DNA from: Faecousia sp.
GTDB lineage: Bacteria; Bacillota; Clostridia; Oscillospirales; Oscillospiraceae
Reading direction: 5' to 3'
DNA: 64,000 nt
Assembly: GCA_045658365.1 (NCBI GenBank)
Contig: JAZOUU010000103.1
Location: 15,206-79,205 of the forward strand
The position numbers and the translations under genes were made by a program. Below are positions 4,758-44,173 of this stretch, piece by piece. Every line of letters begins with the position of its first letter. Positions within the stretch are counted from its first letter, which is position 1. The notes beneath the pieces were generated by a model. That model worked only from the letters and a program-made list of their open reading frames with translations. It did not search any database and had not been told where the DNA came from.

Positions 4758-4769
4758 GGAGATGAGACT

Positions 4770-19124: not shown

Positions 19125-20108
19125 GTGGAACGAGATTTTAGATATTTAAGAGATATGCACACCGATGCTGGCGCAAGAGAGATATTTGAAAAAATATGTA
19201 CGGAATGGCTTTATGCACAATACGGAGACAATGCGCACAACATTCGAGTCAGTCAAGGCGATGCGGGTATAGATATTTTGGTAGGCGATTTTTCGGCGCC
19301 AATTCAGAATTACCAGTGCAAATTCTTTTTGGATGGGATTGGCGATGCGCAAAAGAATCAGATTAGGGATTCTTTTAAGACAGCCGTTACATCTTCTTCC
19401 TATACAATGGAAAAATGGATTCTGTGCGTACCGTGCACATTAAGTGCGCCTGAATTTAAGTGGTGGAGTGAATGGCGGTCTAAGCAGGAGAAACTTTATG
19501 GAATTGATATAGCTCTTCATGAAGGCGGCTATCTTATTTCGCAACTTAAAAAGTACGATATTTATCAGACTGCTTTTGATGATGATGTTCGTGAAAAGCT
19601 TGATACAATTCTATCATACTTTAGTGATGAGAAAAGAAAGATACACGAAGAAATAATTGTGATGCTTAATGAACTGAATGTTGAGCAATTCAATGATATG
19701 ATTTTTGTCAAGAAACTGGAAAATGCAAATATAGCACTTTTAGATGGTTGCAAACGAGATTTTTTTAATGCCGAATTAGTTGAACAAACAATAGAAAGCA
19801 AAGGAGATCCTGAGAATATTCGTTTGCTTAATAATTTGAAGCAAAAAGTGTATTCCCTGTGGGAAACGCAATTTCGGAGGTATTCTGATGACTTAGACGG
19901 GAATGAATTGCTCTCACGTACATACGAGCGTATTGAAGATACAGACACAACAACGCTGAATTGCCCTGCTATTCCTGAGGCGAGTCTTTTTTCTAAGAAA
20001 GGCATTCTGCACCAATGGGCAGAAGAATGCAGTATTGGATGGCTGAAAGACTATAAACAAAAATTAAAAGAGTATTTGGCAAAGGGGACAGAGAAGCATG
20101 GAGATTAA
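19125..20108 (+). CDS. lmuA: Lamassu/ABC-3C effector: PD-(D/E)xK nuclease + C-terminal ABC-3C domain (LmuA-like)
   Basis: FEKIC, GDAGID, YQCKFF nuclease motifs; C-terminal KGILHQWAE...IGW. Confidence 0.75.
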   Translation: MERDFRYLRDMHTDAGAREIFEKICTEWLYAQYGDNAHNIRVSQGDAGIDILVGDFSAPIQNYQCKFFLDGIGDAQKNQIRDSFKTAVTSSSYTMEKWILCVPCTLSAPEFKWWSEWRSKQEKLYGIDIALHEGGYLISQLKKYDIYQTAFDDDVREKLDTILSYFSDEKRKIHEEIIVMLNELNVEQFNDMIFVKKLENANIALLDGCKRDFFNAELVEQTIESKGDPENIRLLNNLKQKVYSLWETQFRRYSDDLDGNELLSRTYERIEDTDTTTLNCPAIPEASLFSKKGILHQWAEECSIGWLKDYKQKLKEYLAKGTEKHGD

Positions 20109-20601
20109 CTTTACTGACTACATAAATGATGCTGTGCGGATCTTAATTTTGCTTAATGCAGCCAAGAACAGAAAATCCTTAGTAATGACAGAACGAAAGA
20201 TTATGCTGTTTGATTACTATTTGAAGTTCCCCCACACCATGCTGAGTGATCTTGCTGATATGCCATGTGATTTGCAGACACTCGATGAATACTATGCTTT
20301 TTTTCACTGGCAGCCAGACATTATTCGATATCGTAGAAGCATTAATTACTTAATCGCAAAAGGTTTTGCGGAGAAAGGGTTTGATAAAAATCAAACAGTC
20401 TTAAGAATTACATGCCTTGGAGAGGAAGTTGTTGGGCAGATAAACACAACATACAAAAGTCGTATGGAGAAGCTTACATTGACTTTTTTACCGATAGTGG
20501 CAAAACTTTCTGACTCAAGAATCGAAGAGCAAATACGGAATAAGTCCAATATACTTTTGCGTAACGGAGGTGGAAATCATGAAAAAGAGATTGAAGATTG
20601 A
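20098..20601 (+). CDS. lmuC: ABC-three-component middle component (LmuC-like)
   Basis: RILILL, FDYYLKFP, YLIAKG, ITCLG winged-helix pattern; coupled between effector and ATPase. Confidence 0.7.
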   Translation: MEINFTDYINDAVRILILLNAAKNRKSLVMTERKIMLFDYYLKFPHTMLSDLADMPCDLQTLDEYYAFFHWQPDIIRYRRSINYLIAKGFAEKGFDKNQTVLRITCLGEEVVGQINTTYKSRMEKLTLTFLPIVAKLSDSRIEEQIRNKSNILLRNGGGNHEKEIED

Positions 20602-22486
20602 GTCTCTGGTTTTAGTTGGAACAAGAAAGAATTACACAGTAAAATTTCATGATGGCTTTAATCTGATTTCTGGGCATACATCAACGGGTAAAACCTCTAT
20701 TCTGGAAATGATTGACTACGCATTAGGTGCGCAAAGCCATAAGTCCTATATTGAGATAGGAAATTCATGTTCTCATGTTGAGTTAATAGTCGTTATTGGA
20801 GACGAGAAGTTTAAAATTCGAAGAGAACTGTTCAATTTTAAAGCTCCGGTAGTTATTGAGGACTGGAGAGAAGATAAAAACAAGTATCTATTCTATAATC
20901 GGTATGAGATAGATGTGCCGAGTAATCCTAAATCGCTTTCTGCATTTTTGATTGAAAAACTGGGCCTTGCAAATATCACTATATCGGGACAAACTTTCAG
21001 CTTTAGAGATATTTTTAAATATTGTTATATCAAGCAAACAGAAATTGACAATGAAGATATCCTGGGTGAAAAAATTTGGACGAAAGATTTTAAGAGAAGA
21101 GCAACGTTTGAAATCATATTTAATATTTATGATAACGCACTGGAGGATTATAAGCGTGCTCTAGAGGAGCGTAGACAGGAAGCACATGACCTGGCACTTC
21201 AAATTACAGGCATACAGGATTTTTTGAAAACAGTTGATATTGTAGACGCAGAAGCTTGCAAGGAACTTGAGAAGGCAATAAGAAAAGAAATTGCGGAATT
21301 GAGTGTGCAATTAGCTGAAATCAAAAAAGGAAAAGGCAATATGTCAAGCGAAGCGATTGCCTTGCGTCGTCGCATAGAGGAGATCAAATTCAAGCTCGCA
21401 GATCTGGATGAAAAGCATAGAGACCAGAAGCAGTACTTAAAAAAGTTACGTCTTCTGTACAATCAATATCTGAGTGAAGTCGATAAGAAAGAACTGGCAA
21501 TACAGGGATATCTTACTTTTAACCAGTATGAGTTCTTGTTTTGCCCTAATTGCTTGCGTCCCATTAAACGTCCTGAAAATGCTGAAGTTTGCTGTTTGTG
21601 TGGAAGCGAAAAGAGTGATGATACTGCTGAGACTTTAATTCTTAAAAATGAGATATCTGTATTAAAGCGAAAAGCAAATGAACTACTAAAGTTTATTGAT
21701 GCCGAGGAAAGAAAGTATGATGCTATTATTCATGAAACACATGAACTGAAATCAGCTTTGTCTGAAGCTGAAATAGAACTGCTTCATTTATCACAAGGCT
21801 ACATTGATCCCCTTATGGAACGAATTGAATATATCAACTATGAAATTGGACTCAAAAACAGGCGACTATTTGAACTTGAAAAGAATTTAAAAATGTTCCA
21901 AGAGGTCGATAGACTCAGTGAAGTTTTTAAAAAGAAAGAGAATTCCATTGAACTTCTAAAAGCTAATATTAAAGCACTATCTATGAATGCCGTTGATAAG
22001 CAAACATTAATTGAACAGCTTTCAAGCGCTCTGCATAATACTTTAGAAGCATTTGAATATCCTAAATTGAGTACAGCTTATATTGATGATAAACGATATC
22101 TACCCTATGTTCGGGGGAGAAAATATGATGATATAGGTAGTCTAGCAGGAGTAACGCTAATTACAATGGCCTACTATATGGCACTGCTTATGGTTGGATC
22201 TTCAGAGGAATATTATCATCCCAATCTATTGATAATTGATTCTCCGAGGAAGAATCTTGGCGCACAAAACACAGGCGATGAGGAAGAGTTTAAAGATGAG
22301 CGAATTTTTAATGCTACGATCAGATACCTGTATAATACTGTGGAGAGTCGAAAAACGGATATTCAGGTGATTGTGGTTAATAACGGATATCCTGACTTCC
22401 TGCCTCGGGAGTGCGTTGTTGCTGAGTTTGATGCAGATGAGCTGTATGGATTGCCAAGGGGGCTTATTGATGATGCAACTAGCTAA
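20579..22486 (+). CDS. lmuB: SMC-like ABC ATPase (LmuB-like) with Zn-hook
   Basis: Walker A GHTSTGKT, coiled coils, CPNC...CCLCG, Walker B LLIIDSP. Confidence 0.85.
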   Translation: MKKRLKIESLVLVGTRKNYTVKFHDGFNLISGHTSTGKTSILEMIDYALGAQSHKSYIEIGNSCSHVELIVVIGDEKFKIRRELFNFKAPVVIEDWREDKNKYLFYNRYEIDVPSNPKSLSAFLIEKLGLANITISGQTFSFRDIFKYCYIKQTEIDNEDILGEKIWTKDFKRRATFEIIFNIYDNALEDYKRALEERRQEAHDLALQITGIQDFLKTVDIVDAEACKELEKAIRKEIAELSVQLAEIKKGKGNMSSEAIALRRRIEEIKFKLADLDEKHRDQKQYLKKLRLLYNQYLSEVDKKELAIQGYLTFNQYEFLFCPNCLRPIKRPENAEVCCLCGSEKSDDTAETLILKNEISVLKRKANELLKFIDAEERKYDAIIHETHELKSALSEAEIELLHLSQGYIDPLMERIEYINYEIGLKNRRLFELEKNLKMFQEVDRLSEVFKKKENSIELLKANIKALSMNAVDKQTLIEQLSSALHNTLEAFEYPKLSTAYIDDKRYLPYVRGRKYDDIGSLAGVTLITMAYYMALLMVGSSEEYYHPNLLIIDSPRKNLGAQNTGDEEEFKDERIFNATIRYLYNTVESRKTDIQVIVVNNGYPDFLPRECVVAEFDADELYGLPRGLIDDATS

Positions 22487-22781: not shown

Positions 22782-23384
22782 ATGGGTAAATATATTGGCA
22801 TGGTAAGTTCTTTGTTATCCATTTTGGTGATGATTTTTACAGATATCAGTAACCTTCCTACGTTTAAGTGGGTATTAACTGTGGTTTCAATTGGTGGGTT
22901 GGTTTTGGCGTTGGCTCTCGAAGTTCATTATTACTTTAAAGGAAAACCGAAGAAGTATAACAAAGAAGAGAATATTGAGTATATGAAACGAATAATATCT
23001 AATGGAGGTAAAGTGGTTGTTTTTGCAGGAAGTTTGAGTTGGGTAAATAACGATGATATTAAACAGGCGATGTTGAACAAAAAGAGAAAACTGCATTTAT
23101 GTGTAGAAGAATCGGCACCTCATATAGATGAATTTAAGGCGGCGGGTGTTAATGTTTATACATATGGTAGTAGTGGATTTTCACCAAAAACACGTTTTAC
23201 TGTTATGAGAAAGGGAACCACAAATGAGAAGATAGCGATTACCTCCATAGAGGATACTGACAAAGCGGCCATACGGTGGATTTATGAAGTATCCAAGGAC
23301 GATAAGGATTTTAAAAACCGTTGGATTGGATATGCTGCCGAGGATTTATTCAATCTTGCAAAACTTTTAGAAGATAGGAGCTAA
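22782..23384 (+). CDS. Two-TM membrane protein with C-terminal alpha/beta (PLD/TrmB-like) domain
   Basis: Two N-terminal hydrophobic helices; VVVFAGSLSWV, RFTV pattern; RBS GAGG. Confidence 0.65.
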   Translation: MGKYIGMVSSLLSILVMIFTDISNLPTFKWVLTVVSIGGLVLALALEVHYYFKGKPKKYNKEENIEYMKRIISNGGKVVVFAGSLSWVNNDDIKQAMLNKKRKLHLCVEESAPHIDEFKAAGVNVYTYGSSGFSPKTRFTVMRKGTTNEKIAITSIEDTDKAAIRWIYEVSKDDKDFKNRWIGYAAEDLFNLAKLLEDRS

Positions 23385-23385
23385 T

Positions 23386-24129
23386 ATGTATATTAAGCCC
23401 GTTAACTCAATTAGTGAAGTTATTATCGAGCAAGAATGGGATGCTATAGCGGATTACCGGGATAGCTTGATTCGTACAGGTCAAGACATAAGTCTCTTGG
23501 ATGTTACAGAGCCGTTTGTGCTCGAAAACATTAGTCGCGAATCAATACGCACAGTTATTGATTGTGGTTGTGGGACCGGTCATTTGTCTAGTTTGATGGC
23601 AGAAAAACTTGAAAAAGATGTTGTAGGGATCGATATTAGCGGTAGGAGCATAACGCTGGCTCAAAAAAACTACGGCCACAAATCGAATCTTTACTTTGTA
23701 AAAAGCTCGGTGATACATTTTGCCAAACATGATGTGAATTTTGATGCTTGTGTTGCTAATATGGTTCTCATGGATATTACAAACATAAAAAAGAATCTTG
23801 AGGCTATTTATAAAATGGTCAAACCAGAGGGGGTTTTTTGTTTTACAATAACACACCCATGCTTTTGGCCGATTTACTGGTCGTATTTTAATGAGCCTTG
23901 GTTTAAATATGATTCGGAGATTTTTTTAAGGGCACCTCTTTACATTAACAACAAATGTTTAGGGGAGACTACACATATTCATAGACCTTTGACAACATAT
24001 ATATCATTGTGCAAAGAAGCTGGATTTAAGATTGAGGAAATAAGAGAATTGTATCCATTAACATCACACCTTGATTTAGATTATCATTACGAATATCCCC
24101 GTTTTATTGGTTTCGTATGTAGAAGGTGA
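23386..24129 (+). CDS. Class I SAM-dependent methyltransferase
   Basis: VIDCGCGTG, VVGIDIS, FDACVANMVLMD, KPEG.F..TITHPCF. Confidence 0.9.
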   Translation: MYIKPVNSISEVIIEQEWDAIADYRDSLIRTGQDISLLDVTEPFVLENISRESIRTVIDCGCGTGHLSSLMAEKLEKDVVGIDISGRSITLAQKNYGHKSNLYFVKSSVIHFAKHDVNFDACVANMVLMDITNIKKNLEAIYKMVKPEGVFCFTITHPCFWPIYWSYFNEPWFKYDSEIFLRAPLYINNKCLGETTHIHRPLTTYISLCKEAGFKIEEIRELYPLTSHLDLDYHYEYPRFIGFVCRR

Positions 24130-25171: not shown

Positions 25172-25354
25172 ATGGAAAACAAAAGATTTTTGACAGCCAA
25201 TGATGTGGCAGAGTATATGGGCATTTCGGTGCCGATGGCCTACAAGATCATTCGTCGCTTGAACGACGAACTGGTCGCTGCAGGTTATATCATCGTTTCC
25301 GGTCGAATCAGCCGTAGCTATTTCGAAAAGAAAATCTACGGCGGCATCGCGTAG
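25172..25354 (+). CDS. xis: Excisionase-like HTH protein (ICEBs1 Xis-like)
   Basis: FLTANDVAEYMGIS...AYKIIRRLN.EL...GY....GRI...YF; RBS AGGAGG; directly upstream of integrase. Confidence 0.8.
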   Translation: MENKRFLTANDVAEYMGISVPMAYKIIRRLNDELVAAGYIIVSGRISRSYFEKKIYGGIA

Positions 25355-25365
25355 GAGGTGAGTAT

Positions 25366-26460
25366 ATGCCTGCTTATAAGGAAAAAGACAGGAACACCTG
25401 GACGGTAAAATTCAAGCATAAAAACTGGAGTGGCGAAGCCAAGTGGGTTACCAAAAGAGGTTTTGCAACCAAACGGGATGCACTGCAATATGAACGTGAT
25501 TTTCTGGCTCGCCAGAGCGGCAATCTGGATATGTCATTCGCGGCCTTTGTTACGGTGTACCGAGAGGACAGAGGAGCTCGTATTAAAGAGAGTACCCAGG
25601 AAACAAAAGACAATATCATTGATACCAAGTTGCTGCCTTACTTTGGGGAAAGGAGTATGCGTGATATCACCACCAAGGATATTATGCTCTGGCAGAATGC
25701 TATGCTTGCCTATCGGAATCCGGATACTGGGAAGCCATACTCCAAGTCCTACCTGAAAACGATACACAATCAGTTGAGCGCAATTTTTAACCATGCAGTT
25801 CGCTACTACAAGTTGACCGAAAATCCTGCTCGCACGGTTGGCAATATGGGCAGTGAAAAGGGAATCGAAATGAAATGTTGGACCCGGGAGGAATATCTGA
25901 AATTTGCTGAATACATGATGGATGACCCTGTGGGTTACTACTATTTTCAAATGCTCTACTGGTGCGGTCTCCGTGAGGGTGAGGCGCTGGCATTGACTAT
26001 CGACGACTTTGATTTTGAGAAGAAGACGGTTTCAATCACAAAAACTTTTCAGCATTTGAAAGGAAAGGATGTAATCACCGAACCAAAAACGCCTAAGAGC
26101 AACCGAATTGTAGAAATGCCGGCTTTCCTGGTGGAGGAAATTCAGTACTATATTGAGAAACTGTATGATCCGCGACCGGATGACCGCCTGTTTCCCTTAT
26201 CCAAGAGCTACCTCAACCGCAAGATGGAACAAGGCAGCAAAGAAATGGACATTCAGCGTATTCGAGTGCACGATTTGCGGCATTCTCATGTATCCCTGTT
26301 AATTCATATGGGATACAGTGCCGTGGCAATCGCGGAGCGGATGGGACATGAGTCTATCGACATTACCTTCCGGTATGCTCATCTGTTTCCTAATGTGCAA
26401 CGGCAAATGGCTGCTGATTTGAATACGTTGCAGGAAGGAGGTGATAAAAATGTCGGCTAA
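25366..26460 (+). CDS. int: Tyrosine integrase (arm-binding + SAM-like + catalytic domains)
   Basis: KRGFATKRDA, GLREGE, PKT, HDLRHSH, MGH, YAHL. Confidence 0.93.
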   Translation: MPAYKEKDRNTWTVKFKHKNWSGEAKWVTKRGFATKRDALQYERDFLARQSGNLDMSFAAFVTVYREDRGARIKESTQETKDNIIDTKLLPYFGERSMRDITTKDIMLWQNAMLAYRNPDTGKPYSKSYLKTIHNQLSAIFNHAVRYYKLTENPARTVGNMGSEKGIEMKCWTREEYLKFAEYMMDDPVGYYYFQMLYWCGLREGEALALTIDDFDFEKKTVSITKTFQHLKGKDVITEPKTPKSNRIVEMPAFLVEEIQYYIEKLYDPRPDDRLFPLSKSYLNRKMEQGSKEMDIQRIRVHDLRHSHVSLLIHMGYSAVAIAERMGHESIDITFRYAHLFPNVQRQMAADLNTLQEGGDKNVG

Positions 26461-26767
26461 AGCTCGTGACGGACAAGGACGGTGGCGTTGCAAGACGATC
26501 GGTGTTCGGGTATCTCCTGAGGAAAACGCCGAGATTGACACATTGGTGGCATTGTCGGGCATGACTAAGCAGGATTATTGTATTAGCCGCATATTGCAGC
26601 GCGATGTAGTGGTTGTTGGTAATCCTAGGGTGCACAAAGCACTCAAGAATCAGATGGAACAGCTCTGCCGGGAATTCGAAAGACTGTGCAATGCTAATGA
26701 AGTGAGCGCAGAAGCATTGCATGTGCTGGAATATCTCATGAGAATTTACGAAAGCTTGAAGAATTAA
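26450..26767 (+). CDS. MobC-like mobilization/RHH accessory protein
   Basis: RWRCKTIGVRVSPEE...I...V.LSG.TKQDY...R......V.GNPR family motif. Confidence 0.7.
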   Translation: MSAKARDGQGRWRCKTIGVRVSPEENAEIDTLVALSGMTKQDYCISRILQRDVVVVGNPRVHKALKNQMEQLCREFERLCNANEVSAEALHVLEYLMRIYESLKN

Positions 26768-26781: not shown

Positions 26782-27492
26782 ATGATTAGAAATTTGGAAG
26801 TCAAGAATGATTTAAACTGTGGCAATGTTATCGCAGGGTGCTATGAAGATCGAGCGGAACAGATGAATCTCCAATGCTATTATGGCATTCGGATGGATAG
26901 CATGGTCATGCCGGAGGAGGATTTTGTAATCAAGCAGTTCTTTGGTACGCTGGAGCAGGTGAACGATTTAATGACTGAGATCGATAAGGATACCCTGTGG
27001 CGAGAATATTATGCGTCATCTCTTGATGCTTTTGAACGCTATCAGTCCGGCGACGCATATTCATTGCATTATGTGGGCGGGGACGCGGAGCAATTTTTGA
27101 GGCCGGTGATTGAGGTGTGCAGATCTGCATTTTTGCTGGACAATCCTGAATGGACCTATCAGGATAAATTCGGATGTCTTATGAGGGCCAGAGCAGATGT
27201 TGTATGTGTTCATCAAGTTTTGCTTTGGGATGGAAATTACTTTATCCGCTGTGCTCGATATGGTTTTGAGGGACTTGAATGCGTACATTCTGAAAAGGGG
27301 TGGATTCCTTACGATGGCAAATCCTGTGGTGTCCCCGCCATGATTGACTCCCAGGGTGCCGGGGACGCATATTGTCGCCTCTTTATGGTGGAAGAAACCT
27401 ACGATGATTTGGACATTGCGAAATGGGATATTCAGCAGGGCAACAAACTGAATTATGAGCAGATCAGCAGAGAATTGTTCTCCGGATGTTAA
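26782..27492 (+). CDS. Hypothetical protein
   Basis: 236-aa ORF with RBS AGGAGG. Confidence 0.7.
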   Translation: MIRNLEVKNDLNCGNVIAGCYEDRAEQMNLQCYYGIRMDSMVMPEEDFVIKQFFGTLEQVNDLMTEIDKDTLWREYYASSLDAFERYQSGDAYSLHYVGGDAEQFLRPVIEVCRSAFLLDNPEWTYQDKFGCLMRARADVVCVHQVLLWDGNYFIRCARYGFEGLECVHSEKGWIPYDGKSCGVPAMIDSQGAGDAYCRLFMVEETYDDLDIAKWDIQQGNKLNYEQISRELFSGC

Positions 27493-27683: not shown

Positions 27684-29177
27684 TTATTCGTTATCCGGTT
27701 CGTGTTCCGGCGCAATTTTGTTGTTTTCTTCCGCCTCCGCTTGATCTCGGGCACGGCGGTGTGTTTCCAAGTAGTCATATATCACATTGGGAGAGTTCTC
27801 AATAGGGCCTTCCAACGGCTGTGTATACATACTTCCGCTGACAATAGTACCATCAGGAATCGTCATTGAGAGCGTACCCGGTGCCAGCAAATCGTAGCCG
27901 GTGAACTCTATAACCAGCTTTCCTTTTTTGTTAGGAAGTGCAAATGCCTGATTAAATGCATTGCTGCTTTCGTAACAACTGGTTTCAATGGTTTTTTGAT
28001 CCAACACAGCCGGATTGACATATGGACGCAGATTCATTTTCTCTTCAAGTCGTCTCAGCAGATCTTCGTTTCGATAGTCGCTTCGTCTGACACTCGGATT
28101 TTCAATTTTGTGCCCCATTCCAAATTGCCGGTCTTCCGGTCGCGAACCTAAAATGTGCATCTCCGTATTCCAATATCTGCGCCATCCGTATGCTGACGGG
28201 TCACGCTCCTCAGCAAATCCCAACTCCCCGGGAGTGACACGCTTGACTGCCTCTGCAAACTCTTGTGAGTTTACAATATTCTGCAACAGCAGAAAGTCTT
28301 TTTCGCTATACCCAACTTGAGAGAACAACTTGCGAAATGCTGCCGTAAGTTGGAGTGATGCACAGTGTCGGAAGAAATCATCCTTATCGTGAACGATCGG
28401 TACTCTGTGGATATCGGTAATTCCATGTGTCGCATCTGTATTCTCTTGGGAAAATACTTCCACGATACGCCTTTGTTTTTCTTCCAGCAGCAAGGCGAGT
28501 TTACTGCTGATGATTGCTGTCCGATAACCATTATCTGTTTTAAGGCCATCTCGCAAATTACGAGTTTGTCCGCTGGTGGAGTTGTGGATGTACACCTTAG
28601 GGATGGTTTCGCCATCTTTGTAAGAGTAAAAGTCGCCATATGTGGCTCCTGCGGCTTCTTTCAAGCGCAAAGCGTCCTCCATCAGAAAAGCCAAACCGGT
28701 TTGTTCACCGGATTCAGGTACTGATTGGTAAATGAGTTTTGCCATTTTCCAAACCATCACCGGATCCAGCGAACGAGGGGGGACTGTTTCCTCTCGCTGT
28801 TCTACATTTTTCGGAGTAAGTACTTCTCCAGTATGAACGCCCCAAAATGGGTTCTTTAACCCTTCATTTTGGACAGCAAAGTCAGTCACGCACTCGATTA
28901 AATGCCAGTAGTGCTGAAGAGTCGTGTTTTTATAGTGTTTTTCTTTACTTAAATCATAAATCAACTGTTTGTAGTCTTCTGCCGTATATTCAGACAATGG
29001 CCAATCCTTCAGCCGAGGCAAAATATTTTTCTCATAATCCTTTGCATAACTCTCTTTTGTCCCTGATCCCCAATGGTGTTTCTTGGCGATTGCATCAAAG
29101 TGTTTTAGCAGGACACCGGCAAATGTAATCTGACTGTTGTGTTGGACCACCCAGTCATATTCAAAATAGTTATTCAT
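27684..29177 (-). CDS. Divergent tyrosine recombinase (core-binding + catalytic + C-terminal extension)
   Basis: T.ESY...Y.KNILP, KNTTLQHY...NPF; LRLKE, LKT, YGWRR, MGH, RSDY; ATG overlaps upstream stop. Confidence 0.75.
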   Translation of the reverse strand: MNNYFEYDWVVQHNSQITFAGVLLKHFDAIAKKHHWGSGTKESYAKDYEKNILPRLKDWPLSEYTAEDYKQLIYDLSKEKHYKNTTLQHYWHLIECVTDFAVQNEGLKNPFWGVHTGEVLTPKNVEQREETVPPRSLDPVMVWKMAKLIYQSVPESGEQTGLAFLMEDALRLKEAAGATYGDFYSYKDGETIPKVYIHNSTSGQTRNLRDGLKTDNGYRTAIISSKLALLLEEKQRRIVEVFSQENTDATHGITDIHRVPIVHDKDDFFRHCASLQLTAAFRKLFSQVGYSEKDFLLLQNIVNSQEFAEAVKRVTPGELGFAEERDPSAYGWRRYWNTEMHILGSRPEDRQFGMGHKIENPSVRRSDYRNEDLLRRLEEKMNLRPYVNPAVLDQKTIETSCYESSNAFNQAFALPNKKGKLVIEFTGYDLLAPGTLSMTIPDGTIVSGSMYTQPLEGPIENSPNVIYDYLETHRRARDQAEAEENNKIAPEHEPDNE

Positions 29178-31713
29178 CTTTGTTGTCCCCCTGTTCTTCC
29201 GGATAAAAGTGTACGGAAAGAGCTGCTCCGTAACGTGCAAAAAATTGAAGCAAAATGCTTGCATTCTCCCCTTCGCAGGAAGGATCGATATCCAATTCGA
29301 TTCGAGTCCTGGTGTATTGATTAGAAGGTGTCACGGCATAAGAAATCATATCGTTTTGGGGTCTAATCCGTGTCACACTATAATCAGGGTTCGACGCAAA
29401 GAATCTTGCAGCCCATTGATCCAGCTGTGTCCGCATCAGCAACTGCATCAGCTTAACGGAATAGTCGCAATAGTATTGACCTTCCGTGGTTTGCAGCTTA
29501 CGACCCATGAGGTAATTAATTGATTCCGCTTCCAGCTTTGTGTCATATCGGGCGTGAAAATCAAAGTTGCAACGCAAAAAATCGCCTTTGTAATCGGAAA
29601 TGTCAGTCGTAGCCTGCGAACTGTGCTCCACATCAACAGACAATTTGATTTCGGGAATTCCGAGCCTGTCTGCAATGCTGTTATAATAGTCCCGCAACTG
29701 CCGGGGGGTAAGCGGCTCTTTATTGTTACCGGGCTTTGCAAACAACGGCGCGTTATTGGACTGTCTGCCCTGAGATTTAATTTTTGCAATTATCTTATCT
29801 GCAATTGGACGAACCACAGGGATCAGCCGCTGTTTTTGTTTTCGCAGTGATACAGCGGTTAGAGTCCTATACTGAAACTCCTTTGTAACCGCAATCATCA
29901 GCAAATTTAGTTCCAGATCAATGATGCAGTCACCTCGTGTCAATGCACACAACTGGTTCAGAGGTAGTCCGGTATAGTATCGCATCAGTGTTGCCAGCGC
30001 CTTTTCAGGATTCTGACTATCGTTTAACAACAGGGTAAGAAACTTGGCCTCTTGCTCAGCATCAAAAGAACGATTTGTCATCTCCCTACGCAGTTTTGAC
30101 GTCTGCTTTCTAGCATATCCTTGAGTGTTGAGCATTTTCCGCACCGGATTGCACGCATAATACCGTTCGATTACTGCGTAGTCAAAAAGAATCACCATTT
30201 GTTTCATGAACAAATCGGCCTTGGTTTCTGATAAAGCATTGTCTTTGATATATGCAGACAGAACCGTCATAAGCTCGTTTGTATTTTCGATATTGGGAAT
30301 AAAACCGCAAATAGGCTCCGTCGCGCTATTAGGGCGGAAGAAAACCGAGTCGTAGAGTTCTTCGTTAAATCCCTTTACGCCGGAAATTTGGTCGAAGTGA
30401 ACAAATAACAGCGTTTTCAGCGACACAGGCTTGTTTTTTTCCAAGTATTCCTTGATTACCGCTTTACGGACTATTTTAGCCAGTTCCTTGTCCTGCAAGA
30501 GATATTCTGCCGAGGCGAGAGCTTCTTCTTTTGTGTTATACCATTTCCCGGGGATGTGGGTTTTGATCGATTTACCTCTAAGGAGCGTGTTTTTCCGCGC
30601 CTGATCAGTGGTAGGGTAGTCATAAATGCTATAGTAAGGTCTATATTTTCCGCCTTTCTGTGCAAAGGACACCCAAATCGAAATTTCTTCAGTGAACTTG
30701 TACTCGATAGGTTTTTGACGTCTGTTCGGCTCTGAATAGTCAATGTAATCCGAATTATACATCTCGCTCAGTGTTCGATCGCGCATGGTAAAGCTGTCAA
30801 AGGGAACACGGCGAAACTCCAGCGCTTCGATTTGGTTCTTGTTCACGAGTTTCATTTTCTGAACAAGGATTTCTTGGCAGTTCTGTGTAGGTTTGTTTTG
30901 CAGGATCAACAGACACTGCTTCTTTTTTTCTGCGTTAACAGCCTCTTGAGGCATAAGTACAATTTTGAAAATTGTATAATTGTCATTCAAGAAATTCCAA
31001 AGCTCACCTTCTGACTGCCGCTTTTCCAAATACACAGTTGGCATCAGAATGTAAATTCCGGTGGAGCGCTGTTCAATTAAAGCGGATTTGATATTCTCCA
31101 GAATTCGCTGGATTTCATCCGGAGTGTTGTCTCGCGCGAAATACAAAACACGGTCAAAGAATTGTTTATCCAGATACCTCATTTCTTTAACGTGATCCTT
31201 TTCTGTAGAATACCGGCTCACTTCGAAGAAACGATCGTCAGAATATGTGTAGGTGAGGGGATTGCTAAATTTCTGTTGTTGCTTAATGAAAGAAGGGGAT
31301 GGATCAATAATAAGCGTTTTGTTTTCTTTCGTCGTGAAGCGAAAGAATATCTGGCTTACAATTCCGTTTTCTATTCCGCTATTATTAGCACGATTGGCAA
31401 TGTAGGCTTCGTATTGTTGCATGAATTGTAACGGGTTGAGTTTGCTCCAGTTCCGGATGACTTCGTTATAGACTGTTTCCAGCTTGCGGAATCGAATATC
31501 TGAAAACTCAGTTTGACTTTCACGAGCTTCAATGTAACGCATGGGGTTTGTCATGTCGGGAATCGTCTCGGCATACTTTTGGGCCTCGATATAGATGTCG
31601 ATTATATGCTGCGAAGGAATGCACATAGATTTGAGTTTTTCAACATTTTCGGCAAAGCTCTTTGTGACAGTAACTTGAGTGGGATTAAGCGAATAGATTT
31701 GATTTGTTGGCAT
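29170..31713 (-). CDS. 847-aa fusion: degenerate DNA-methyltransferase-like N-terminus + degenerate tyrosine recombinase
   Basis: LIIDP, FDRVL, GIYILMP, IFKIVLMP, QCLLILQNK pattern; then TKEEA, LFDYAV...NPV, YYTGLPLNQLCAL, RLIPV, DFLR, LMGR, QYY; RBS GAGGAGG. Confidence 0.7.
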   Translation of the reverse strand: MPTNQIYSLNPTQVTVTKSFAENVEKLKSMCIPSQHIIDIYIEAQKYAETIPDMTNPMRYIEARESQTEFSDIRFRKLETVYNEVIRNWSKLNPLQFMQQYEAYIANRANNSGIENGIVSQIFFRFTTKENKTLIIDPSPSFIKQQQKFSNPLTYTYSDDRFFEVSRYSTEKDHVKEMRYLDKQFFDRVLYFARDNTPDEIQRILENIKSALIEQRSTGIYILMPTVYLEKRQSEGELWNFLNDNYTIFKIVLMPQEAVNAEKKKQCLLILQNKPTQNCQEILVQKMKLVNKNQIEALEFRRVPFDSFTMRDRTLSEMYNSDYIDYSEPNRRQKPIEYKFTEEISIWVSFAQKGGKYRPYYSIYDYPTTDQARKNTLLRGKSIKTHIPGKWYNTKEEALASAEYLLQDKELAKIVRKAVIKEYLEKNKPVSLKTLLFVHFDQISGVKGFNEELYDSVFFRPNSATEPICGFIPNIENTNELMTVLSAYIKDNALSETKADLFMKQMVILFDYAVIERYYACNPVRKMLNTQGYARKQTSKLRREMTNRSFDAEQEAKFLTLLLNDSQNPEKALATLMRYYTGLPLNQLCALTRGDCIIDLELNLLMIAVTKEFQYRTLTAVSLRKQKQRLIPVVRPIADKIIAKIKSQGRQSNNAPLFAKPGNNKEPLTPRQLRDYYNSIADRLGIPEIKLSVDVEHSSQATTDISDYKGDFLRCNFDFHARYDTKLEAESINYLMGRKLQTTEGQYYCDYSVKLMQLLMRTQLDQWAARFFASNPDYSVTRIRPQNDMISYAVTPSNQYTRTRIELDIDPSCEGENASILLQFFARYGAALSVHFYPEEQGDNKDE

Positions 31714-31960: not shown

Positions 31961-32099
31961 GATGTCTGAATAGGAGCTGTGTGCTTAAATTGTTTTTGCG
32001 ATATTTCTAAACGCCGAAATAAGCACATATTACCAGAAACGTAATTTTATATTACTGTACGACTCGATATGAGAAACTATGAAAAACAGAGCGTATTTG

Positions 32100-32119
32100 T
32101 GTTGGTCAAAAGTTGGTCA
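32100..32119 (+). repeat. 20-bp direct repeat (copy 2), integrase arm-site-like, ~120 bp from the guaA stop
   Basis: Identical to 8351-8370. Confidence 0.75.
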
Positions 32120-32239: not shown

Positions 32240-33241
32240 TCATTCCCACTCGATGGTGCCGATGGGCTTGGGAGTCAGATCCATGAGCACACGGTTGATG
32301 CCTTCAACCTCGTGGGTAATCCGGTAGGTGATGTGGTGCAGCAGGGCGTAGGGGATCTCCTCTACAGTGGCGGTCATAGCATCGGTGGTGTTGACGGCGC
32401 GGATGATGGCAGGCCAGCCTTCGTAGCGGCTTTCGTCTTTCACACCGACGCTCTTGATGTCGGGCACAGCGATGAAGTACTGCCAGACCTTTTCGTTCAA
32501 GCCGTTCTTTTCAAATTCCTCGCGAAGGATAGCATCGGCTTCCCGGAGAGCGTGGAGACGATCGCGGGTGATAGCGCCCAGGCAGCGGACACCCAGACCG
32601 GGGCCGGGGAAGGGCTGACGGTAGACCATGGCATGGGGCAGACCCAGAGCCTCGCCGACCACGCGGACTTCGTCCTTGAACAGCAGCTTAATGGGCTCCA
32701 CCAGTTCAAATTGCAGGTCTTCCGGCAGACCGCCCACGTTGTGGTGGGACTTAACGGCCTTCTTGCCCTCAGCGGCCTTAATGGATTCCAGAATGTCGGG
32801 GTAGATGGTGCCCTGAGCCAGATAGGAGATTCCTTCCAGCTTCCGGGCTTCATCGGCAAATACTTCGATAAATTCCTTGCCGATGATCTTGCGTTTGCGC
32901 TCAGGATCAGAAACACCGGCCAGAAGATCCAGGAATCGGTCGGTGGCATCTACATAAATCAAGTTGGCATCCAGACCGTCACGGAACGTCTTGATGACGC
33001 CTTCGGACTCATCCTTACGCATAAGACCGTGATTGACATGGACACAGACCAGCTGCTTGCCAATTGCTTTGATCAGCAATGCGGCGACTACACTGGAGTC
33101 CACACCACCGGACAAAGCTAGCAGAACCTTTCGGTCGCCCACTTGCTTGCGGACGGCAGCAACCTGCTCATCGATGAATGCGTTTGCCAGCTCAGGGGTA
33201 GTGATGCGGAGCATGGATTCGGGACGTACATTGTTTTCCAT
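32240..33241 (-). CDS. guaA: GMP synthase, ATP-pyrophosphatase part only (no glutamine amidotransferase domain)
   Basis: LSGGVDSSV, QGTIYPD, KSHHNVGGLP, RQPFPGPGL, KP.GTIEWE. Confidence 0.93.
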   Translation of the reverse strand: MENNVRPESMLRITTPELANAFIDEQVAAVRKQVGDRKVLLALSGGVDSSVVAALLIKAIGKQLVCVHVNHGLMRKDESEGVIKTFRDGLDANLIYVDATDRFLDLLAGVSDPERKRKIIGKEFIEVFADEARKLEGISYLAQGTIYPDILESIKAAEGKKAVKSHHNVGGLPEDLQFELVEPIKLLFKDEVRVVGEALGLPHAMVYRQPFPGPGLGVRCLGAITRDRLHALREADAILREEFEKNGLNEKVWQYFIAVPDIKSVGVKDESRYEGWPAIIRAVNTTDAMTATVEEIPYALLHHITYRITHEVEGINRVLMDLTPKPIGTIEWE

Positions 33242-38399: not shown

Positions 38400-39233
38400 A
38401 TGGACTGGAATTGGATTCACAGCCTATTTTACGGCTTGATTTCCGGCTTTACGGAATTCCTGCCCATATCCCCGGATGCCCATCGGCATTTGTTTGCGGA
38501 GCTGACCGGAGTGGGGCAGGGACACCTACCCCACCGGCTTTTCAGCCATATTGGTGGATTGCTGGCGCTGCTGCTTGTCTGCAAGCCTCAGATCGACAAG
38601 CTTCTTAGAGAGCGGCGAATCGCTACATTGCCGGTAAAACGGAGAAAACGCCAGCCGGATGTAAAGAGTTTGGCAGAAATTCGTTTCTTGCGTACGGCCG
38701 GATGGATGCTTCTGCTGTCTATTCCCGGCTTTGTTATGATTTCACGGTTTGGACAGCCTCTTTGGTTGGTAGCGGTGCTGCTTTTGCTGAATGGTGTTAT
38801 TTTGTATGTCCCTCAATTTCTCCCAGGTGGCAATAAAGAGGCCCTGTCCCTTTCTGCGGCAGACAGCCTTTTGACAGGCGTAGCCGGTGCCCTTGGCAGA
38901 TTTCCAGGCATCTCCGGCATTGGCACAGCTATGTCTGCATTAAAGATTCGGGGCGCGGATTGGCAGTGTGCTTTGCAAATGTGCCTGCTGCTTTCGGTCC
39001 CGGCCTTCTTAATTGCTATGGGTTGCGATGTCTATGGTATGGTGCTTGTGGGTGCCGGTATTTCCTTTGGATATATTTTGCACTATTTACTTACGACGTT
39101 AAGCGCTTTTGCCGGCGCTTATTTCGGGATCATTTTCATGCGTTTTTTGGCAGTGAAAGCTGGTTTTTCCGGATTTGCCTATTATTGCTGGGGTATGGCG
39201 TTATTTAGTATTTTCCTATACCTTATGATTTAA
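38400..39233 (+). CDS. uppP: Undecaprenyl-diphosphate phosphatase (divergent)
   Basis: G..SG.TEFLPIS..AH, PGISG.G, multiple TMs, FAYYC. Confidence 0.75.
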   Translation: MDWNWIHSLFYGLISGFTEFLPISPDAHRHLFAELTGVGQGHLPHRLFSHIGGLLALLLVCKPQIDKLLRERRIATLPVKRRKRQPDVKSLAEIRFLRTAGWMLLLSIPGFVMISRFGQPLWLVAVLLLLNGVILYVPQFLPGGNKEALSLSAADSLLTGVAGALGRFPGISGIGTAMSALKIRGADWQCALQMCLLLSVPAFLIAMGCDVYGMVLVGAGISFGYILHYLLTTLSAFAGAYFGIIFMRFLAVKAGFSGFAYYCWGMALFSIFLYLMI

Positions 39234-39249
39234 CAAAGGAGGAACTCCG

Positions 39250-41895
39250 ATGGCAGATAAGAAATCAAAATCCCAGGCGCAAAAGGCGGCAATGGGGAAA
39301 AAACAGAAAAAAGGATCAACTGATAAATCCACGGCTGTGAAGAAAGCAGAAAAGCAGAGAGTATTTCCTGTTCGGCTGATTACATCGCTGGTTTGTCTTG
39401 TGCTGTTTGTTCTGTTTTTAGTCATGTTCCTGCAGCCGGACGGAATTCTGGTTAAATTACTGCAGAACTTTGTATTGGGATTGATTGGCAATGTTTCTTT
39501 TTATGTTGCCATTCCTGCACTGCTGTACTTATTCACCATACAGGCTTTCAGCGGCAAGCGGCCGATCATCCTTCGGAGTGTCTGCCTGATTTGCTTTGTG
39601 CTGCTGTGCGGCTGTATTTCCCAGTTGGGCTTGGATACCGGGGACATGCCTTCCGGCATTACGGTTGTAGGATATTTATATGCAGGCGGCGCAGCCGGTA
39701 CTTCTGCCGGACTTCTCTGCGGCGGTATCGCATTGCTGCTGCGCAGCCTCTGTGGCTCAGTTATTTCTTACATAGCCTTTACTGTGGGCGCTTTGCTTAC
39801 CTTGTTGGCATCCTTCCAGGTGACCATTCCCAGCATTATCCGCGCGGTGCAAAATCGTCCTCGGGCCGACTGGGAGGACGAACCGGAAGAAGTGCAGGAG
39901 CCTGCGGCGGTGGTGGTTAATCACCTGGCCAATAAACGCATTGAATATGTGGAAAACAAGCGGCGCCTGCAAGCAGAACGGGAAGAGCTGGAACTGTTGG
40001 AAGACGAGGAAGAACTGCCCGTTCCTGCGCCGGGAAAAAAGCAAAAGGTAAATTCCAAGGCATCGGATCTCATGAGCCAAATTGACGGCGATGTGGAAAA
40101 GCCGGTGGCTGCAGCAGAAAAGGCTGTGGAAGAAAACGCAGATGTGGATTTGATTTTGAATGCCAAGCCCGATGTGCCAGCCAACACCATTGTGGTAGAA
40201 CCGGTGCAGGCGGAAATGATGCCCTTTGAAAAAGAAATGCCGGAAACGGTTCCCGAAGTTCCTGCGGTCTCCGATGTAAAAAAGGAAAAAGTAACCGCTA
40301 AAGATGCGGAAGAGTCTGCAGCTCAGGTAGCTGCGGAAATCGCAGAAGCGGAAGCGGCCCAAAAGGTGGATTATTGCTTCCCACCCATTGATTTGCTGAA
40401 GCTGCCGCTTCGGGGAAGCCAGGACGGGACTATGGAAATGCGGGAAAATACCCGTCGGCTGAATGAAACTTTGGCAAGCTTCCGAATCGATGCCCATATT
40501 ATCAATGTGACCCGGGGGCCCAGTGTCACCCGTTACGAGGTGGAGCTGGATAAAGGTGTGAAGTTGAGTAAGCTTACCTCCTGCGCCGATGATATCGCTC
40601 TGAGTCTGGGCGCATCCGGTGTCCGTATTGCGGCGGTGCCCGGAAAAATCTCTGTCGTTGGTATTGAGGTGCCCAATCGGGCGGTGACCATGGTTTCACT
40701 CCGTGAGGTCATTGATGCCAATGAGTTTAACATGGCCAAATCCAAGTCCTCCTTTGCGGTGGGTAAGGATATCGGCGGAACCTGCATCGTCGGTAATATC
40801 TCCAGACTGCCTCACATGCTGATTGCCGGCACTACCGGTTCCGGTAAGTCCGTGTGTATGAACTCTATCATTATCAGCCTTTTGTATAAGGCAAGTCCCG
40901 AGGATGTCAAGCTCATCATGGTTGACCCCAAGATGGTGGAGCTTGGTATCTATAACGGTATTCCTCATTTGCTGATTCCAGTTGTGACTGACCCGAAGAA
41001 AGCCGCCGGCTCTCTGCAGTGGGCGGTGACCGAAATGATGCGCCGCTACAAGGCTATGTCTGATGCCGGCGTTCGGGATCTGGAGTCCTATAATGGCATC
41101 GTGGAAGCTGAGGGCGAGGGCAGCAAGCTGCCCCAGATCGTGGTCATTATTGACGAGCTGGCGGATTTGATGCTGGTAGCTGCCAAAGAGGTGGAGGAAT
41201 CCATCTGCCGCATTGCCCAGATGGGCCGTGCTGCGGGAATTCACCTGATCATCGCGACCCAGCGGCCCTCTGCCGATGTCATCACCGGCCTTATGAAGGC
41301 GAATATTCCTTCCCGGATCGCATTTGCCGTGGCATCTGCCATGGAATCACGGATCATTCTGGATACCCAGGGTGCAGAGAAGCTGGTTGGCAAGGGTGAC
41401 ATGCTGTATGCGCCCATTGGCAATGGCAAGCCCCTGCGTGTTCAGGGCTGTTTCGTAAGCGATGCGGAAGTGGAAGCGGTAGCTACCTATGTCAAGCAGA
41501 ATTTCACCACCACCTATGACCAGGAGGTCATGGAGGAAATCGAGCGTAAGGCCATGCAAACCGGCACCAGTAAGCCCACGGCCACTGAGCCGGAGCCCAA
41601 TGCTGAGGAACTGGACGGCGACGAAATGCTGCCTGCGGCGGTGGATGTGATTCTGGAAACGGGACAGGCTTCCGTATCCATGCTCCAGCGTCGGTTGAAG
41701 CTGGGCTATGCCCGGGCGGCGAGAATTGTGGATGAAATGGAAGAAAAGGGAATTGTAGGCCCCTTCCAGGGCAGCAAGCCCCGTTCTATCCTGATCACCA
41801 AGGAGCAGTGGGCGTCCATGCGCTCCGGTCAGAGTGTCCAAATGGGCTTTGACGATATGGAAGAAGACGGCGGTGTCCCGGAAGAAATTGACTAA
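39250..41895 (+). CDS. ftsK: DNA translocase FtsK/SpoIIIE
   Basis: N-terminal TMs, GTTGSGKS, IIDELADLM, ATQRPS, gamma domain LQRRLKLGYARAAR. Confidence 0.95.
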   Translation: MADKKSKSQAQKAAMGKKQKKGSTDKSTAVKKAEKQRVFPVRLITSLVCLVLFVLFLVMFLQPDGILVKLLQNFVLGLIGNVSFYVAIPALLYLFTIQAFSGKRPIILRSVCLICFVLLCGCISQLGLDTGDMPSGITVVGYLYAGGAAGTSAGLLCGGIALLLRSLCGSVISYIAFTVGALLTLLASFQVTIPSIIRAVQNRPRADWEDEPEEVQEPAAVVVNHLANKRIEYVENKRRLQAEREELELLEDEEELPVPAPGKKQKVNSKASDLMSQIDGDVEKPVAAAEKAVEENADVDLILNAKPDVPANTIVVEPVQAEMMPFEKEMPETVPEVPAVSDVKKEKVTAKDAEESAAQVAAEIAEAEAAQKVDYCFPPIDLLKLPLRGSQDGTMEMRENTRRLNETLASFRIDAHIINVTRGPSVTRYEVELDKGVKLSKLTSCADDIALSLGASGVRIAAVPGKISVVGIEVPNRAVTMVSLREVIDANEFNMAKSKSSFAVGKDIGGTCIVGNISRLPHMLIAGTTGSGKSVCMNSIIISLLYKASPEDVKLIMVDPKMVELGIYNGIPHLLIPVVTDPKKAAGSLQWAVTEMMRRYKAMSDAGVRDLESYNGIVEAEGEGSKLPQIVVIIDELADLMLVAAKEVEESICRIAQMGRAAGIHLIIATQRPSADVITGLMKANIPSRIAFAVASAMESRIILDTQGAEKLVGKGDMLYAPIGNGKPLRVQGCFVSDAEVEAVATYVKQNFTTTYDQEVMEEIERKAMQTGTSKPTATEPEPNAEELDGDEMLPAAVDVILETGQASVSMLQRRLKLGYARAARIVDEMEEKGIVGPFQGSKPRSILITKEQWASMRSGQSVQMGFDDMEEDGGVPEEID

Positions 41896-41969
41896 ATCTT
41901 AACAGGGTCACCTGTGTAGATATATTACATCCCATCCGCAGCTGCGGAGGGACAGTAGGAGGTTAATCA

Positions 41970-42536: not shown

Positions 42537-42547
42537 CACATCATTTC

Positions 42548-42575
42548 CCGGCAGCCTTTTGGCTGCCGGTTTTTT
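42548..42575 (+). terminator. Rho-independent terminator
   Basis: ccggcagcc / ggctgccgg + T-run. Confidence 0.8.
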
Positions 42576-42585
42576 GCGCCCAGAG

Positions 42586-42614
42586 GTATTTATTTTCCTC
42601 CGGGCGCATAGTCT
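42586..42614 (+). promoter_or_regulatory. Sigma-E-like promoter of spoIIIA operon
   Basis: gtATtta ... cATAgtcT upstream of spoIIIAA, a known sigma-E target. Confidence 0.5.
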
Positions 42615-42626
42615 TTTCCAGGAGTG

Positions 42627-43975: not shown

Positions 43976-43978
43976 GCT

Positions 43979-44173
43979 ATGGATATTGATCTGATTTTTA
44001 AAATTGCTGCCATTGGCATTATTGTTTCCATTTTAAATCAGGTGCTTTCCCGCTCTGGGCGGGAAGAACAGGCAACAATGACGACCCTGGCAGGCCTGGT
44101 GGTGGTTTTGATGATGGTCGCGCAGAAAATTTCCGATCTGTTTGATCTGGTCAAAACCCTGTTTCACTTCTGA
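43979..44173 (+). CDS. spoIIIAC: Stage III sporulation protein AC
   Basis: MDIDLIFKIAAIGI...L...GREEQA. Confidence 0.93.
   Translation: MDIDLIFKIAAIGIIVSILNQVLSRSGREEQATMTTLAGLVVVLMMVAQKISDLFDLVKTLFHF

What the first reader, a model, noticed from the sequence alone, without database searches (positions are those of the whole stretch)
27684..31713. Coupled pair of atypical tyrosine recombinases, one fused to a pseudo-DNA-methyltransferase domain, at the guaA-proximal island end
Seen: two minus-strand genes overlapping by 8 bp (translational coupling). Gene 1 (847 aa) has an N-terminal pattern like the Rossmann/C-terminal part of N6-adenine MTases (LIIDP, FDRVL, GIYILMP...IFKIVLMP...QCLLILQNK) but lacks the GxG SAM motif and the NPPY/F motif. 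It continues with arm-binding-like (TKEEA), core-binding-like (LFDYAV...NPV) and recombinase catalytic segments, where the first Arg is Pro (GLPLNQ), HxxR is DFLR and GH is GR, while Tyr residues remain. Gene 2 (~497 aa) has no arm-binding domain but keeps R (LRLKE), K (LKT), YxxR, GH and Y. Both end in a short beta-rich extension. Established: RIT elements, Tn554 TnpA/TnpB and gamma-mobile-trio use several recombinases, but I know none with an MTase-fold fusion. Inference: a heteromeric recombinase in which an inactive subunit provides targeting or methylation/SAM sensing and the partner performs catalysis. This could be a new mobile-element or defence system.
Basis: partly seen in the sequence, partly recalled or inferred. 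Interest (0 to 1): 0.85.

Follow-up and report, generated by a model that had tools for sequence, protein, structure and literature searches.

The report
Two-gene recombinase sharing one active site
Two overlapping genes in a bacterial defence island each keep only part of a DNA-cutting site of the integrase type, one the attacking tyrosine and the other the activating residues, and they are predicted to pair into a single enzyme that would likely cut only one DNA strand.

Summary
Gene 1 (A, 847 aa) has a dead Type I methyltransferase (HsdM) fold, then an integrase body. It lacks the catalytic Arg/His residues, yet Tyr748 is the only invariant residue in 113 of 113 diverse homologues reaching that column. 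Gene 2 (B, 497 aa) keeps R-E-K-Y-R-H in 34 of 34 aligned rows, but its candidate nucleophile is Tyr in only 5 of 14 lineages and Phe in 7. A predicted A–B complex (0.87; best control 0.00) puts A-Tyr748 against B's catalytic helix and co-folds both C-terminal beta tails. A and B are adjacent in 15 of 18 loci and co-diverge. Best reading: an obligate heterodimeric tyrosine recombinase with one composite active site, likely a one-strand exchanger of islands at guaA, tRNA and other gene ends. Its substrate is not shown; a canonical integrase nearby may do the guaA integration. The HsdM-like part is optional: 5 of 10 intact pairs lack it. No paper found in 8 searches; the scan had no look-alike.

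The parts
29170..31713 (-). Gene A (847 aa): tyrosine-donor subunit; pseudo-HsdM + likely arm-binding + core-binding + catalytic-fold domains + beta tail
30751..31668 (-). A residues 16-321: whole Type I HsdM-like fold without GxG or NPPY/F motifs
   Evidence: Foldseek 3lkd E 5e-7; VIA 2okc Z 15.2, rmsd 4.8, 282 aligned; motifs in 0 of 114; dN/dS 0.21
30484..30717 (-). A residues about 333-410: likely arm-binding domain (strands plus helix); inferred, not searched alone
   Evidence: secondary structure; 60-89% identity across the 25 homologues of A1
29398..30426 (-). A residues 430-772: core-binding + tyrosine-recombinase catalytic fold with a dead pocket (Arg-I column R in 1 of 114; His-II column Asp in 101; His-III column His in 1; Arg-II kept in 72)
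   Evidence: VIA 4a8e Z 17.7, rmsd 10.8, 253 aligned; 6emz Z 15.6, rmsd 6.8, 276 aligned
29470..29472 (-). A Tyr748, the predicted nucleophile donated to B
   Evidence: 113 of 113 homologues reaching the column; only invariant column among 141 rows; contacts B334 and B337 in the model
29197..29391 (-). A residues 775-839: beta tail, predicted to co-fold with B's tail
   Evidence: interface list
27684..29177 (-). Gene B (497 aa): activating subunit; core-binding + catalytic domain + beta tail; 8-bp overlap with A at 29170-29177
28110..28667 (-). B catalytic set R171, E174, K213, Y330-x-x-R333, H356
   Evidence: invariant in 34 of 34 rows; aligns to Tn1549 Int, E 3e-14
28074..28076 (-). B Tyr368 (His+12): not conserved as Tyr, likely a packing residue
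   Evidence: Tyr in 5, Phe in 7, neither in 2 of 14 lineages
27771..27989 (-). B residues 397-469: beta tail, mostly unstructured alone, predicted to co-fold with A's tail
32097..32119 (-). Arm-type-like tandem repeat (TTGACCAACTTTTGACCAAC); other copies at window 8348-8370, upstream on the same contig and on contig C157
   Evidence: also beside unrelated phage integrases, so not specific to A/B
32240..32256 (-). guaA 3' end = attachment core; duplicated with its terminator on C157:17092-17195 and partly near C103:12585
25172..26767 (+). Context: Xis-like HTH, canonical integrase (25366-26460) with a full active site, and NikA-like gene, convergent on B
19125..22486 (+). Context: Lamassu (LmuA, LmuC, LmuB) defence cargo of the same island
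   Evidence: PADLOC; Pfam

Best explanation
The two genes encode tyrosine-recombinase-fold proteins with complementary active-site losses that are predicted to form an obligate heterodimer, in which A likely inserts its invariant Tyr748 into B's Arg-Lys-Tyr-Arg-His pocket to make one working site. Shown: the folds, the complementary conservation, the pairing, the co-divergence and purifying selection. Predicted: binding through the two beta tails and Tyr748 docked on B's catalytic helix (my odds for a composite site about 0.75). Inferred: A's own pocket is dead, so each dimer would cut only the strand next to B. An A2B2 synapse would then do one strand exchange and leave a Holliday junction for replication, or another enzyme, to resolve. 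That would give copy-out circles or strand-specific integration of the island (about 0.45). The pseudo-HsdM domain is an optional, swappable accessory, likely a non-catalytic DNA- or protein-binding module.
For: A: Y748 in 113 of 113, while the Arg-I column has R in 1 of 114 and the His-III column His in 1 of 114. The Tyr is also present in all 12 A-type ORFs or ORF pieces checked from loci, including MTase-less forms at 14-21% identity. Its spacing (+10 from the His-III column) is canonical (9 of 9 controls at +9/+10). B: R171, E174, K213, Y330, R333, H356 in 34 of 34. Tyr at His-II occurs in 6.8% of tyrosine recombinases while the nucleophile is 99.6% Tyr (PMC2943603 Table 1, passage); B's candidate is Tyr in 5 of 14 lineages. 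Complex: score 0.87 (runs 0.87/0.84/0.88), best control 0.00; runs agree in at least 83% of contacts; partner pLDDT at least 77; the mark was reached by 116 of 157 solved complexes and 2 of 215 mismatches, holding only roughly here. A748 touches B334 and B337 (error 0.5-0.6 A), and B330, 333 and 356 are in the interface. Pairing: adjacent in 15 of 18 loci, the other 3 being fragments. A forms one side of a branch (99/94) and the A and B distances correlate (rho 0.83, 11 pairs). Mosaic A proteins P0015/16/18/19 keep the window-type N-terminus (66-81%) but carry a different C-terminal half (40%), and the B remnant beside such an A (L002) is closer to the P0052-54 type (46-47%) than to the window type (40-41%). 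Position: directly after guaA 3' ends (window, L001, L002, L035, L051), tRNA-Met (L064) or a truncated deacetylase gene (L052).
Against: No activity was measured and no DNA was in the model. Solved recombinase dimers exist, so the docking may partly come from memory. A-A and B-B controls were not run. The window's own B and its cluster of 23 rows have Tyr368 (one row is cut before it), and L051/L063 and P0055 have a Tyr at the canonical +10. A keeps Arg-II in 72 of 114. No att sites could be assigned to A/B: a complete canonical integrase with Xis lies 1.2 kb away, integrases or their remnants lie near the pair in most loci with long flanks, and the arm-like repeat also flanks unrelated phage integrases. 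Support for B as one clade is weak (81/63), and shared ancestry alone gives congruent trees.
Confidence: 0.62

Rival explanations
1. Same composite active site, different job: the heterodimer is not the island's integrase but a site-specific nicking-closing or covalent-trapping enzyme, for circle maintenance or for defence. The pseudo-HsdM would act as bait or sensor, for example for anti-restriction proteins that bind HsdM.
For: A canonical integrase and Xis can account for the guaA insertion. The island carries Lamassu and Thoeris. One active site per dimer cannot finish a standard two-step recombination (inference). An Ocr-bound and an ArdA-bound Type I MTase are among the fold matches (7eew, 7btr). 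Two B proteins carry long C-terminal additions, one with a weak gyrase-CTD match (E 0.0012, below cut-off).
Against: The pair sits at island junctions, where integrases sit. In G334:C23, G188:C17 and G330:C15 no canonical integrase was detected in 28-39 kb by my tblastn and profile scans. No PADLOC match. The HsdM-like domain is missing in 5 of 10 intact pairs.
Confidence: 0.22
2. One reading: B is a complete recombinase cleaving in cis with Tyr368, and A is a catalytically dead targeting or sensing partner, like Tfp or GinC.
For: The window's B has all seven positions if Y368 counts; 5 of 14 B lineages have a Tyr there. Dead recombinase-fold partners are known in SE and GInt elements (PMC10214605, PMC5385486; passages).
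Against: The sister lineage P0052-54 (38-40% identical, full length) and 6 other lineages have Phe. The model does not explain why Y748 is A's only invariant residue, nor its predicted place in B's site; B365-370 are not listed in that interface.
Confidence: 0.12
3. The substitutions are decay of ordinary integrase genes.
For: Several loci hold broken copies (L002, L032, L035, L048, L049, L052, L063).
Against: dN/dS 0.06-0.21 for all major domains, 0.33 for A's short tail; the same pattern holds across proteins at 16-21% identity (quartiles); 388 clusters.
Confidence: 0.01

Closest known systems
Flp and SSV1 integrase (cleavage in trans)
   Same: One subunit's tyrosine completes a neighbour's active site (Flp: recalled; SSV1: reference titles seen in PMC8371274).
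   Different: Those are homo-oligomers in which every subunit has all the residues. Here donor and acceptor are separate genes, each having lost the other half.
XerC/XerD
   Same: Two different tyrosine recombinases work together on an asymmetric site (recalled).
   Different: Each Xer protein has a complete site (PMC2943603 Table 1). A and B do not, and both score far below the Xer cut-offs or not at all.
SE elements (IntA, Tfp, IntB, Srap) and GInts (GinABCD)
   Same: Several recombinase-fold genes at an island end, one degenerate; strand-biased copy-out circles in SEs are a model for the inferred outcome (PMC10214605, passages).
   Different: They have four genes, and IntA/IntB and GinA/GinB keep RHRY; Tfp lacks the motif and GinC lacks part of it. 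Here there are two genes, neither complete, with complementary losses.
Tn554 TnpA/TnpB/TnpC, RIT elements, Gamma-Mobile-Trio
   Same: Multi-recombinase mobile elements.
   Different: TnpA/TnpB keep RHRY and all three recombinases of the archetype RIT keep the tyrosine. GMT is a trio with GmtX; no split site appears in the passages read. No third conserved gene accompanies A/B.
Tn916/Tn1549-type integrase; IntDes subgroup
   Same: Best solved-structure match of both catalytic regions. IntDes also has Tyr for the first His (PMC8138268, passage).
   Different: Single-gene enzymes; Tn1549 Int has its own Tyr379 nucleophile.
Type I HsdM / Type IIG methyltransferase fold
   Same: A16-321 matches the helical N-domain plus MTase domain.
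   Different: No GxG and no NPPY/F in any of 114; fused to a recombinase body; no hsdS or hsdR beside it in the window.

Membership tests
Tyrosine recombinase superfamily | Core-binding + catalytic fold | tested here: met
   A: Z 17.7 to 4a8e and 15.6 to 6emz; B: Foldseek E 4.5e-5 to 6emz, profile E 3e-14
Tyrosine recombinase superfamily | R-K-H-R-H/W and Tyr conserved in one polypeptide | tested here: not met
   A lacks Arg-I, His-II and His-III; B lacks a conserved Tyr; together they give the full set
Tyrosine recombinase superfamily | 3'-phosphotyrosine strand cleavage and rejoining | not testable with these tools
   needs biochemistry
N6-adenine DNA methyltransferase (HsdM) | HsdM fold | tested here: met
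   profile hits 2f8l E 0.007 and EcoKI M E 1
N6-adenine DNA methyltransferase (HsdM) | SAM-binding GxG and catalytic [NDS]PP[FYW] | tested here: not met
   0 of 114 for each
SE / GInt elements | Four-gene core with two RHRY-complete recombinases | tested here: not met
   two-gene core, neither complete, in 15 loci; definitions. No direct sequence comparison with IntA, Tfp or Gin proteins was run
SE elements | Strand-biased circles with no empty donor site | not testable with these tools
   contigs laid showed no att joint; no raw reads available
Tn554 / RIT / GMT | Three-gene core | tested here: not met
   no third conserved neighbour in the ORF maps
Trans-cleaving recombinases (Flp-like mechanism) | Nucleophile helix docks in the neighbour's site | tested here: inconclusive
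   predicted contacts A748-B334/337; a model without DNA, not a measurement
Integrase of a guaA island | att duplication attributable to this enzyme | tested here: inconclusive
   duplication found, but a canonical integrase is also present
Known anti-phage system | Match to a curated defence profile | tested here: inconclusive
   0 PADLOC 2023 families for A and B; the library holds only described systems

The most novel reading that the evidence does not exclude
A previously undescribed class of tyrosine recombinase with half-of-sites activity fixed in the genes. A nucleophile-donor gene and an activator gene form an obligate heterodimer that can cut only one strand, and it drives a family of Clostridia islands that move by a single strand exchange resolved by replication. 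Swappable accessory domains (dead HsdM on A, gyrase-CTD-like on some B) would gate the reaction.
Probability: 0.4. Interest if true: 0.92.

Novelty: new variant of a known kind. Interest (0 to 1): 0.82.

Why it matters
Tyrosine recombinases are taken to carry their catalytic set in one chain, with strand order and half-of-sites activity controlled allosterically. A natural two-gene split would fix asymmetry and strand choice in the genes and give a direct test of what one strand exchange alone can do. It explains why these genes escape annotation (no Pfam, NCBIfam or PADLOC match above cut-off; the only source name seen is 'hypothetical protein'). It also suggests a two-component, strand-specific enzyme for genome engineering. 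The test is cheap, four point mutants, and a cultured rumen isolate (Aristaeella lactis WTE2008, NZ_CP069422.1) carries an intact pair.

Tried and rejected
Single-sequence searches of solved structures found nothing useful. Pfam gave only sub-threshold integrase hits. A or B were not found in the phage collection or, with the close B alignment, in viral contigs, nor in 399 scored genomes of the class with that alignment (one genome not scored). The wide B alignment returned no new distant proteins by word search. G230 (L054), one of 8 B-search hits, is a canonical integrase and was dropped from all pair counts; weak A-search hits at E>1e-6 were not followed, except where the B search recovered the same genome. 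The TGACCAAC tandem repeat was considered as the A/B site and rejected as non-specific: it occurs in 7 viral contigs without A or B and in 0 of 200 family genomes. The likeness of the guaA core to the truncated deacetylase junction in L052 (CCATCnAnTGGGA) is only suggestive: the pattern occurs 2-7 times in each of 5 genomes, and the gene's other half was not found. Self-comparison of eight contig regions gave no repeats that bound an A/B-only element. No Rfam match in 7 loci. No RNA holder listed. Contigs of four runs showed no att-circle joint. The ESM Atlas gave no answer. The beta tails and the arm-binding domain were not folded or searched alone, and Pfam was not scanned across the A family. 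Literature searches returned no listing that describes a two-gene complementary site or an MTase-fold fusion; most subscription journals are not covered and no supplements were read.
Full report
Observation. The two ORFs exist as described: A 29170-31713 (847 aa) and B 27684-29177 (497 aa), minus strand, 8-bp overlap, just beyond a short guaA at the edge of a low-GC region. Neither reaches a Pfam or NCBIfam cut-off, and neither matches PADLOC.

The family. Word searches gave 29 A homologues (38-87%) and 24 B homologues besides itself; 8 A/B pairs share a longest-contig length. A full HMMER scan found 388 clusters at 50% identity for A (225 at E<=1e-10); the best 150 were listed and the 113 of at least 650 aa were aligned with the query. 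Against L001, dN/dS is 0.15 for A and 0.17 for B. This is not decay. The closest named relatives are in an Oscillospiraceae MAG and a Faecousia MAG. In a sample of 400 genomes of the host family, 8 held an A- or B-type gene; 2 of 390 order-level genomes matched the wide B profile.

Anatomy of A. The model (mean pLDDT 87.6, pTM 0.47) has residues 16-321 matching whole Type I HsdM subunits and 430-772 matching integrases. Motif I reads [ND]PSP, with no GxG, and no [NDS]PP[FYW] occurs in any of 114 rows, so the domain is very likely not a methyltransferase. It is covered in 112 of those 114 rows, but that set was found with the full-length query. Among the 10 intact pairs with genomic context, 5 have it (window, L001, L031, L073; and L035's fragment shows it too) or lack it as follows: L033, L034, L050, L051, L053 and L064 are 465-551 aa and lack it. 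By this list 4 intact pairs have it and 6 lack it, so 'at least 5 of 10 lack it' is the safe reading of the figure given elsewhere in this report. In the recombinase part, the Arg-I column has Arg in 1 of 114, His-II is Asp in 101, His-III is His in 1, and Arg-II is kept in 72. Tyr748 is present in 113 of 113 rows that reach it, the only such column, and in the MTase-less forms.

Anatomy of B. R171, E174, K213, R219, Y330, R333, G355 and H356 are invariant in 34 of 34 rows. Tyr at His-II is a known variant (6.8%; PMC2943603 Table 1, passages; IntDes in PMC8138268, passages). The nucleophile should be 99.6% Tyr (same table). In B the aromatic after GH is Tyr in 5, Phe in 7 and neither in 2 of 14 lineages at 50% linkage (L073 and L052 read by eye). 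In the window it lies at +12, against +9/+10 in 9 of 9 canonical controls; A's Tyr748 lies at +10. Against my reading: the window's own lineage has Tyr there, and L051/L063 and P0055 have a Tyr at +10.

The complex. A425-847 with B1-480 scored 0.87 (0.87, 0.84, 0.88), best of 3 controls 0.00, with at least 83% contact agreement and partner pLDDT at least 77. The mark was reached by 116 of 157 solved complexes and 2 of 215 mismatches, roughly applicable here. A748 touches B334 and B337; B330, 333 and 356 are in the interface; the tails A775-839 and B397-469 form the largest interface. B's tail is mostly without secondary structure when folded alone. The model supports binding and does not show it. 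It has no DNA and no homodimer controls, and recombinase dimers are in the training data.

Pairing. Of 18 loci with an A- or B-type gene (window, L001-L003, L031-L035, L048-L053, L063, L064, L073), 15 have both adjacent. The order is A-B, except B-A in L050, L051, L053 and L063. The other three are fragments (L035, L048, L049); no intact solo gene was seen. In a 31-row tree A is one side of a branch (99/94), B weakly so (81/63), and the subgroups mirror each other (rho 0.83, 11 pairs; this shows shared descent, not selection). Mosaic A proteins have exchanged everything after about residue 405, and the B remnant beside one of them is of the other type. So A's C-terminal half appears to travel with B, and the HsdM/arm-binding half is swappable.

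Context. The guaA 3' end and terminator are duplicated on contig C157 and partly upstream on C103, with arm-like repeats, which points to tandem islands at guaA. Cargo includes Lamassu and Thoeris. A complete canonical integrase with Xis and a NikA-like gene faces B; the same trio occurs in L051 and L073. I therefore cannot assign the guaA insertion to A/B. Other pairs follow a full-length guaA, tRNA-Met, or a truncated deacetylase gene, and three long regions showed no canonical integrase in my scans. The cultured isolate Aristaeella lactis WTE2008 has an intact pair on a 44-kb record deposited as a non-mobilizable plasmid, with a 5.3-kb near-duplicate at its ends. An excised circle is possible but unproven.

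Mechanism. Shown: folds, complementary conservation, pairing, selection. Predicted: heterodimer with Tyr748 on B's catalytic helix. Inferred: one live site per dimer, hence one strand cut and one exchange per synapse, resolved by replication or a helper. Strand-biased copy-out has precedent in SE elements (PMC10214605, passages), and replicative transfer in GMT islands (bioRxiv 10.1101/2023.03.28.534373, passages). Rivals: the same composite site used for nicking, circle maintenance or defence (0.22); B complete and A dead (0.12); decay (0.01).

Comparison and novelty. It works like Flp or SSV1 trans cleavage (Flp recalled; SSV1 from reference titles in PMC8371274) and is heteromeric like XerCD. 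It is not a member of SE, GInt (PMC5385486, passages), Tn554, RIT or GMT by gene number and residue pattern. Eight literature searches (listings and abstract starts only) found no description; coverage of subscription journals is poor. The scan's own index had no look-alike by sequence and no finding with all search words. Verdict: a new variant of tyrosine recombinase, interest 0.82. It would be a new category if single-strand exchange by the pair is confirmed.

Noticed in passing
window 19125-22486 (+) and 567-2641: Lamassu (LmuA, LmuC, LmuB) and Thoeris (ThsA Sir2-STALD plus a TIR gene) in the same guaA island array, with a Xer-like recombinase at 2710-3666.
   Followed up: partly
window 8268-8372; C103:11920-11967 and about 12585-12704; C157:17092-17311: Repeated copies of the island-end sequence suggest several elements integrated in tandem at the guaA 3' end, the far end lying after a his operon on contig C157.
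   Followed up: partly
L064 7980-10553; L033 4649-7864: B proteins with long C-terminal additions (857 and 1071 aa). L064 has a weak gyrase C-terminal repeat match (E 0.0012, below cut-off); L033 looks similar by eye but gave no such match.
   Followed up: partly
L002 10001-12973: A deletion fuses A just after its conserved tyrosine motif to an internal part of B; 798-aa members of the same cluster recur in several assemblies.
   Followed up: partly
L035 8452-14879: An A N-terminal half directly after a full-length guaA is interrupted, followed by an HsdS fragment and an HsdR gene; a real Type I system beside the pseudo-HsdM may be chance at this hotspot.
   Followed up: no
L073 (NZ_CP069422.1) 203-5476 and 38920-44127: Record labelled plasmid has a 5.3-kb near-duplicate starting at a sharp junction with TGACC repeats upstream of both copies; cargo is a kinase-phosphatase-FHA and DUF4011 cluster.
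   Followed up: partly
window 32240-33241: guaA here is a 333-aa form without the glutaminase domain; full-length paralogues exist in genus relatives, and both forms are used as insertion sites.
   Followed up: no
window 8642, 17031, 18048: A repeated ATCGTTACTATAGTT motif upstream of several genes near an ECF-sigma-like gene (16839-17360), possibly its promoter element.
   Followed up: no
window 22782-24129 and 26782-27492: A membrane-anchored 200-aa ORF with a class I SAM methyltransferase next to it, and a 236-aa ORF without family match between the NikA-like gene and B.
   Followed up: no
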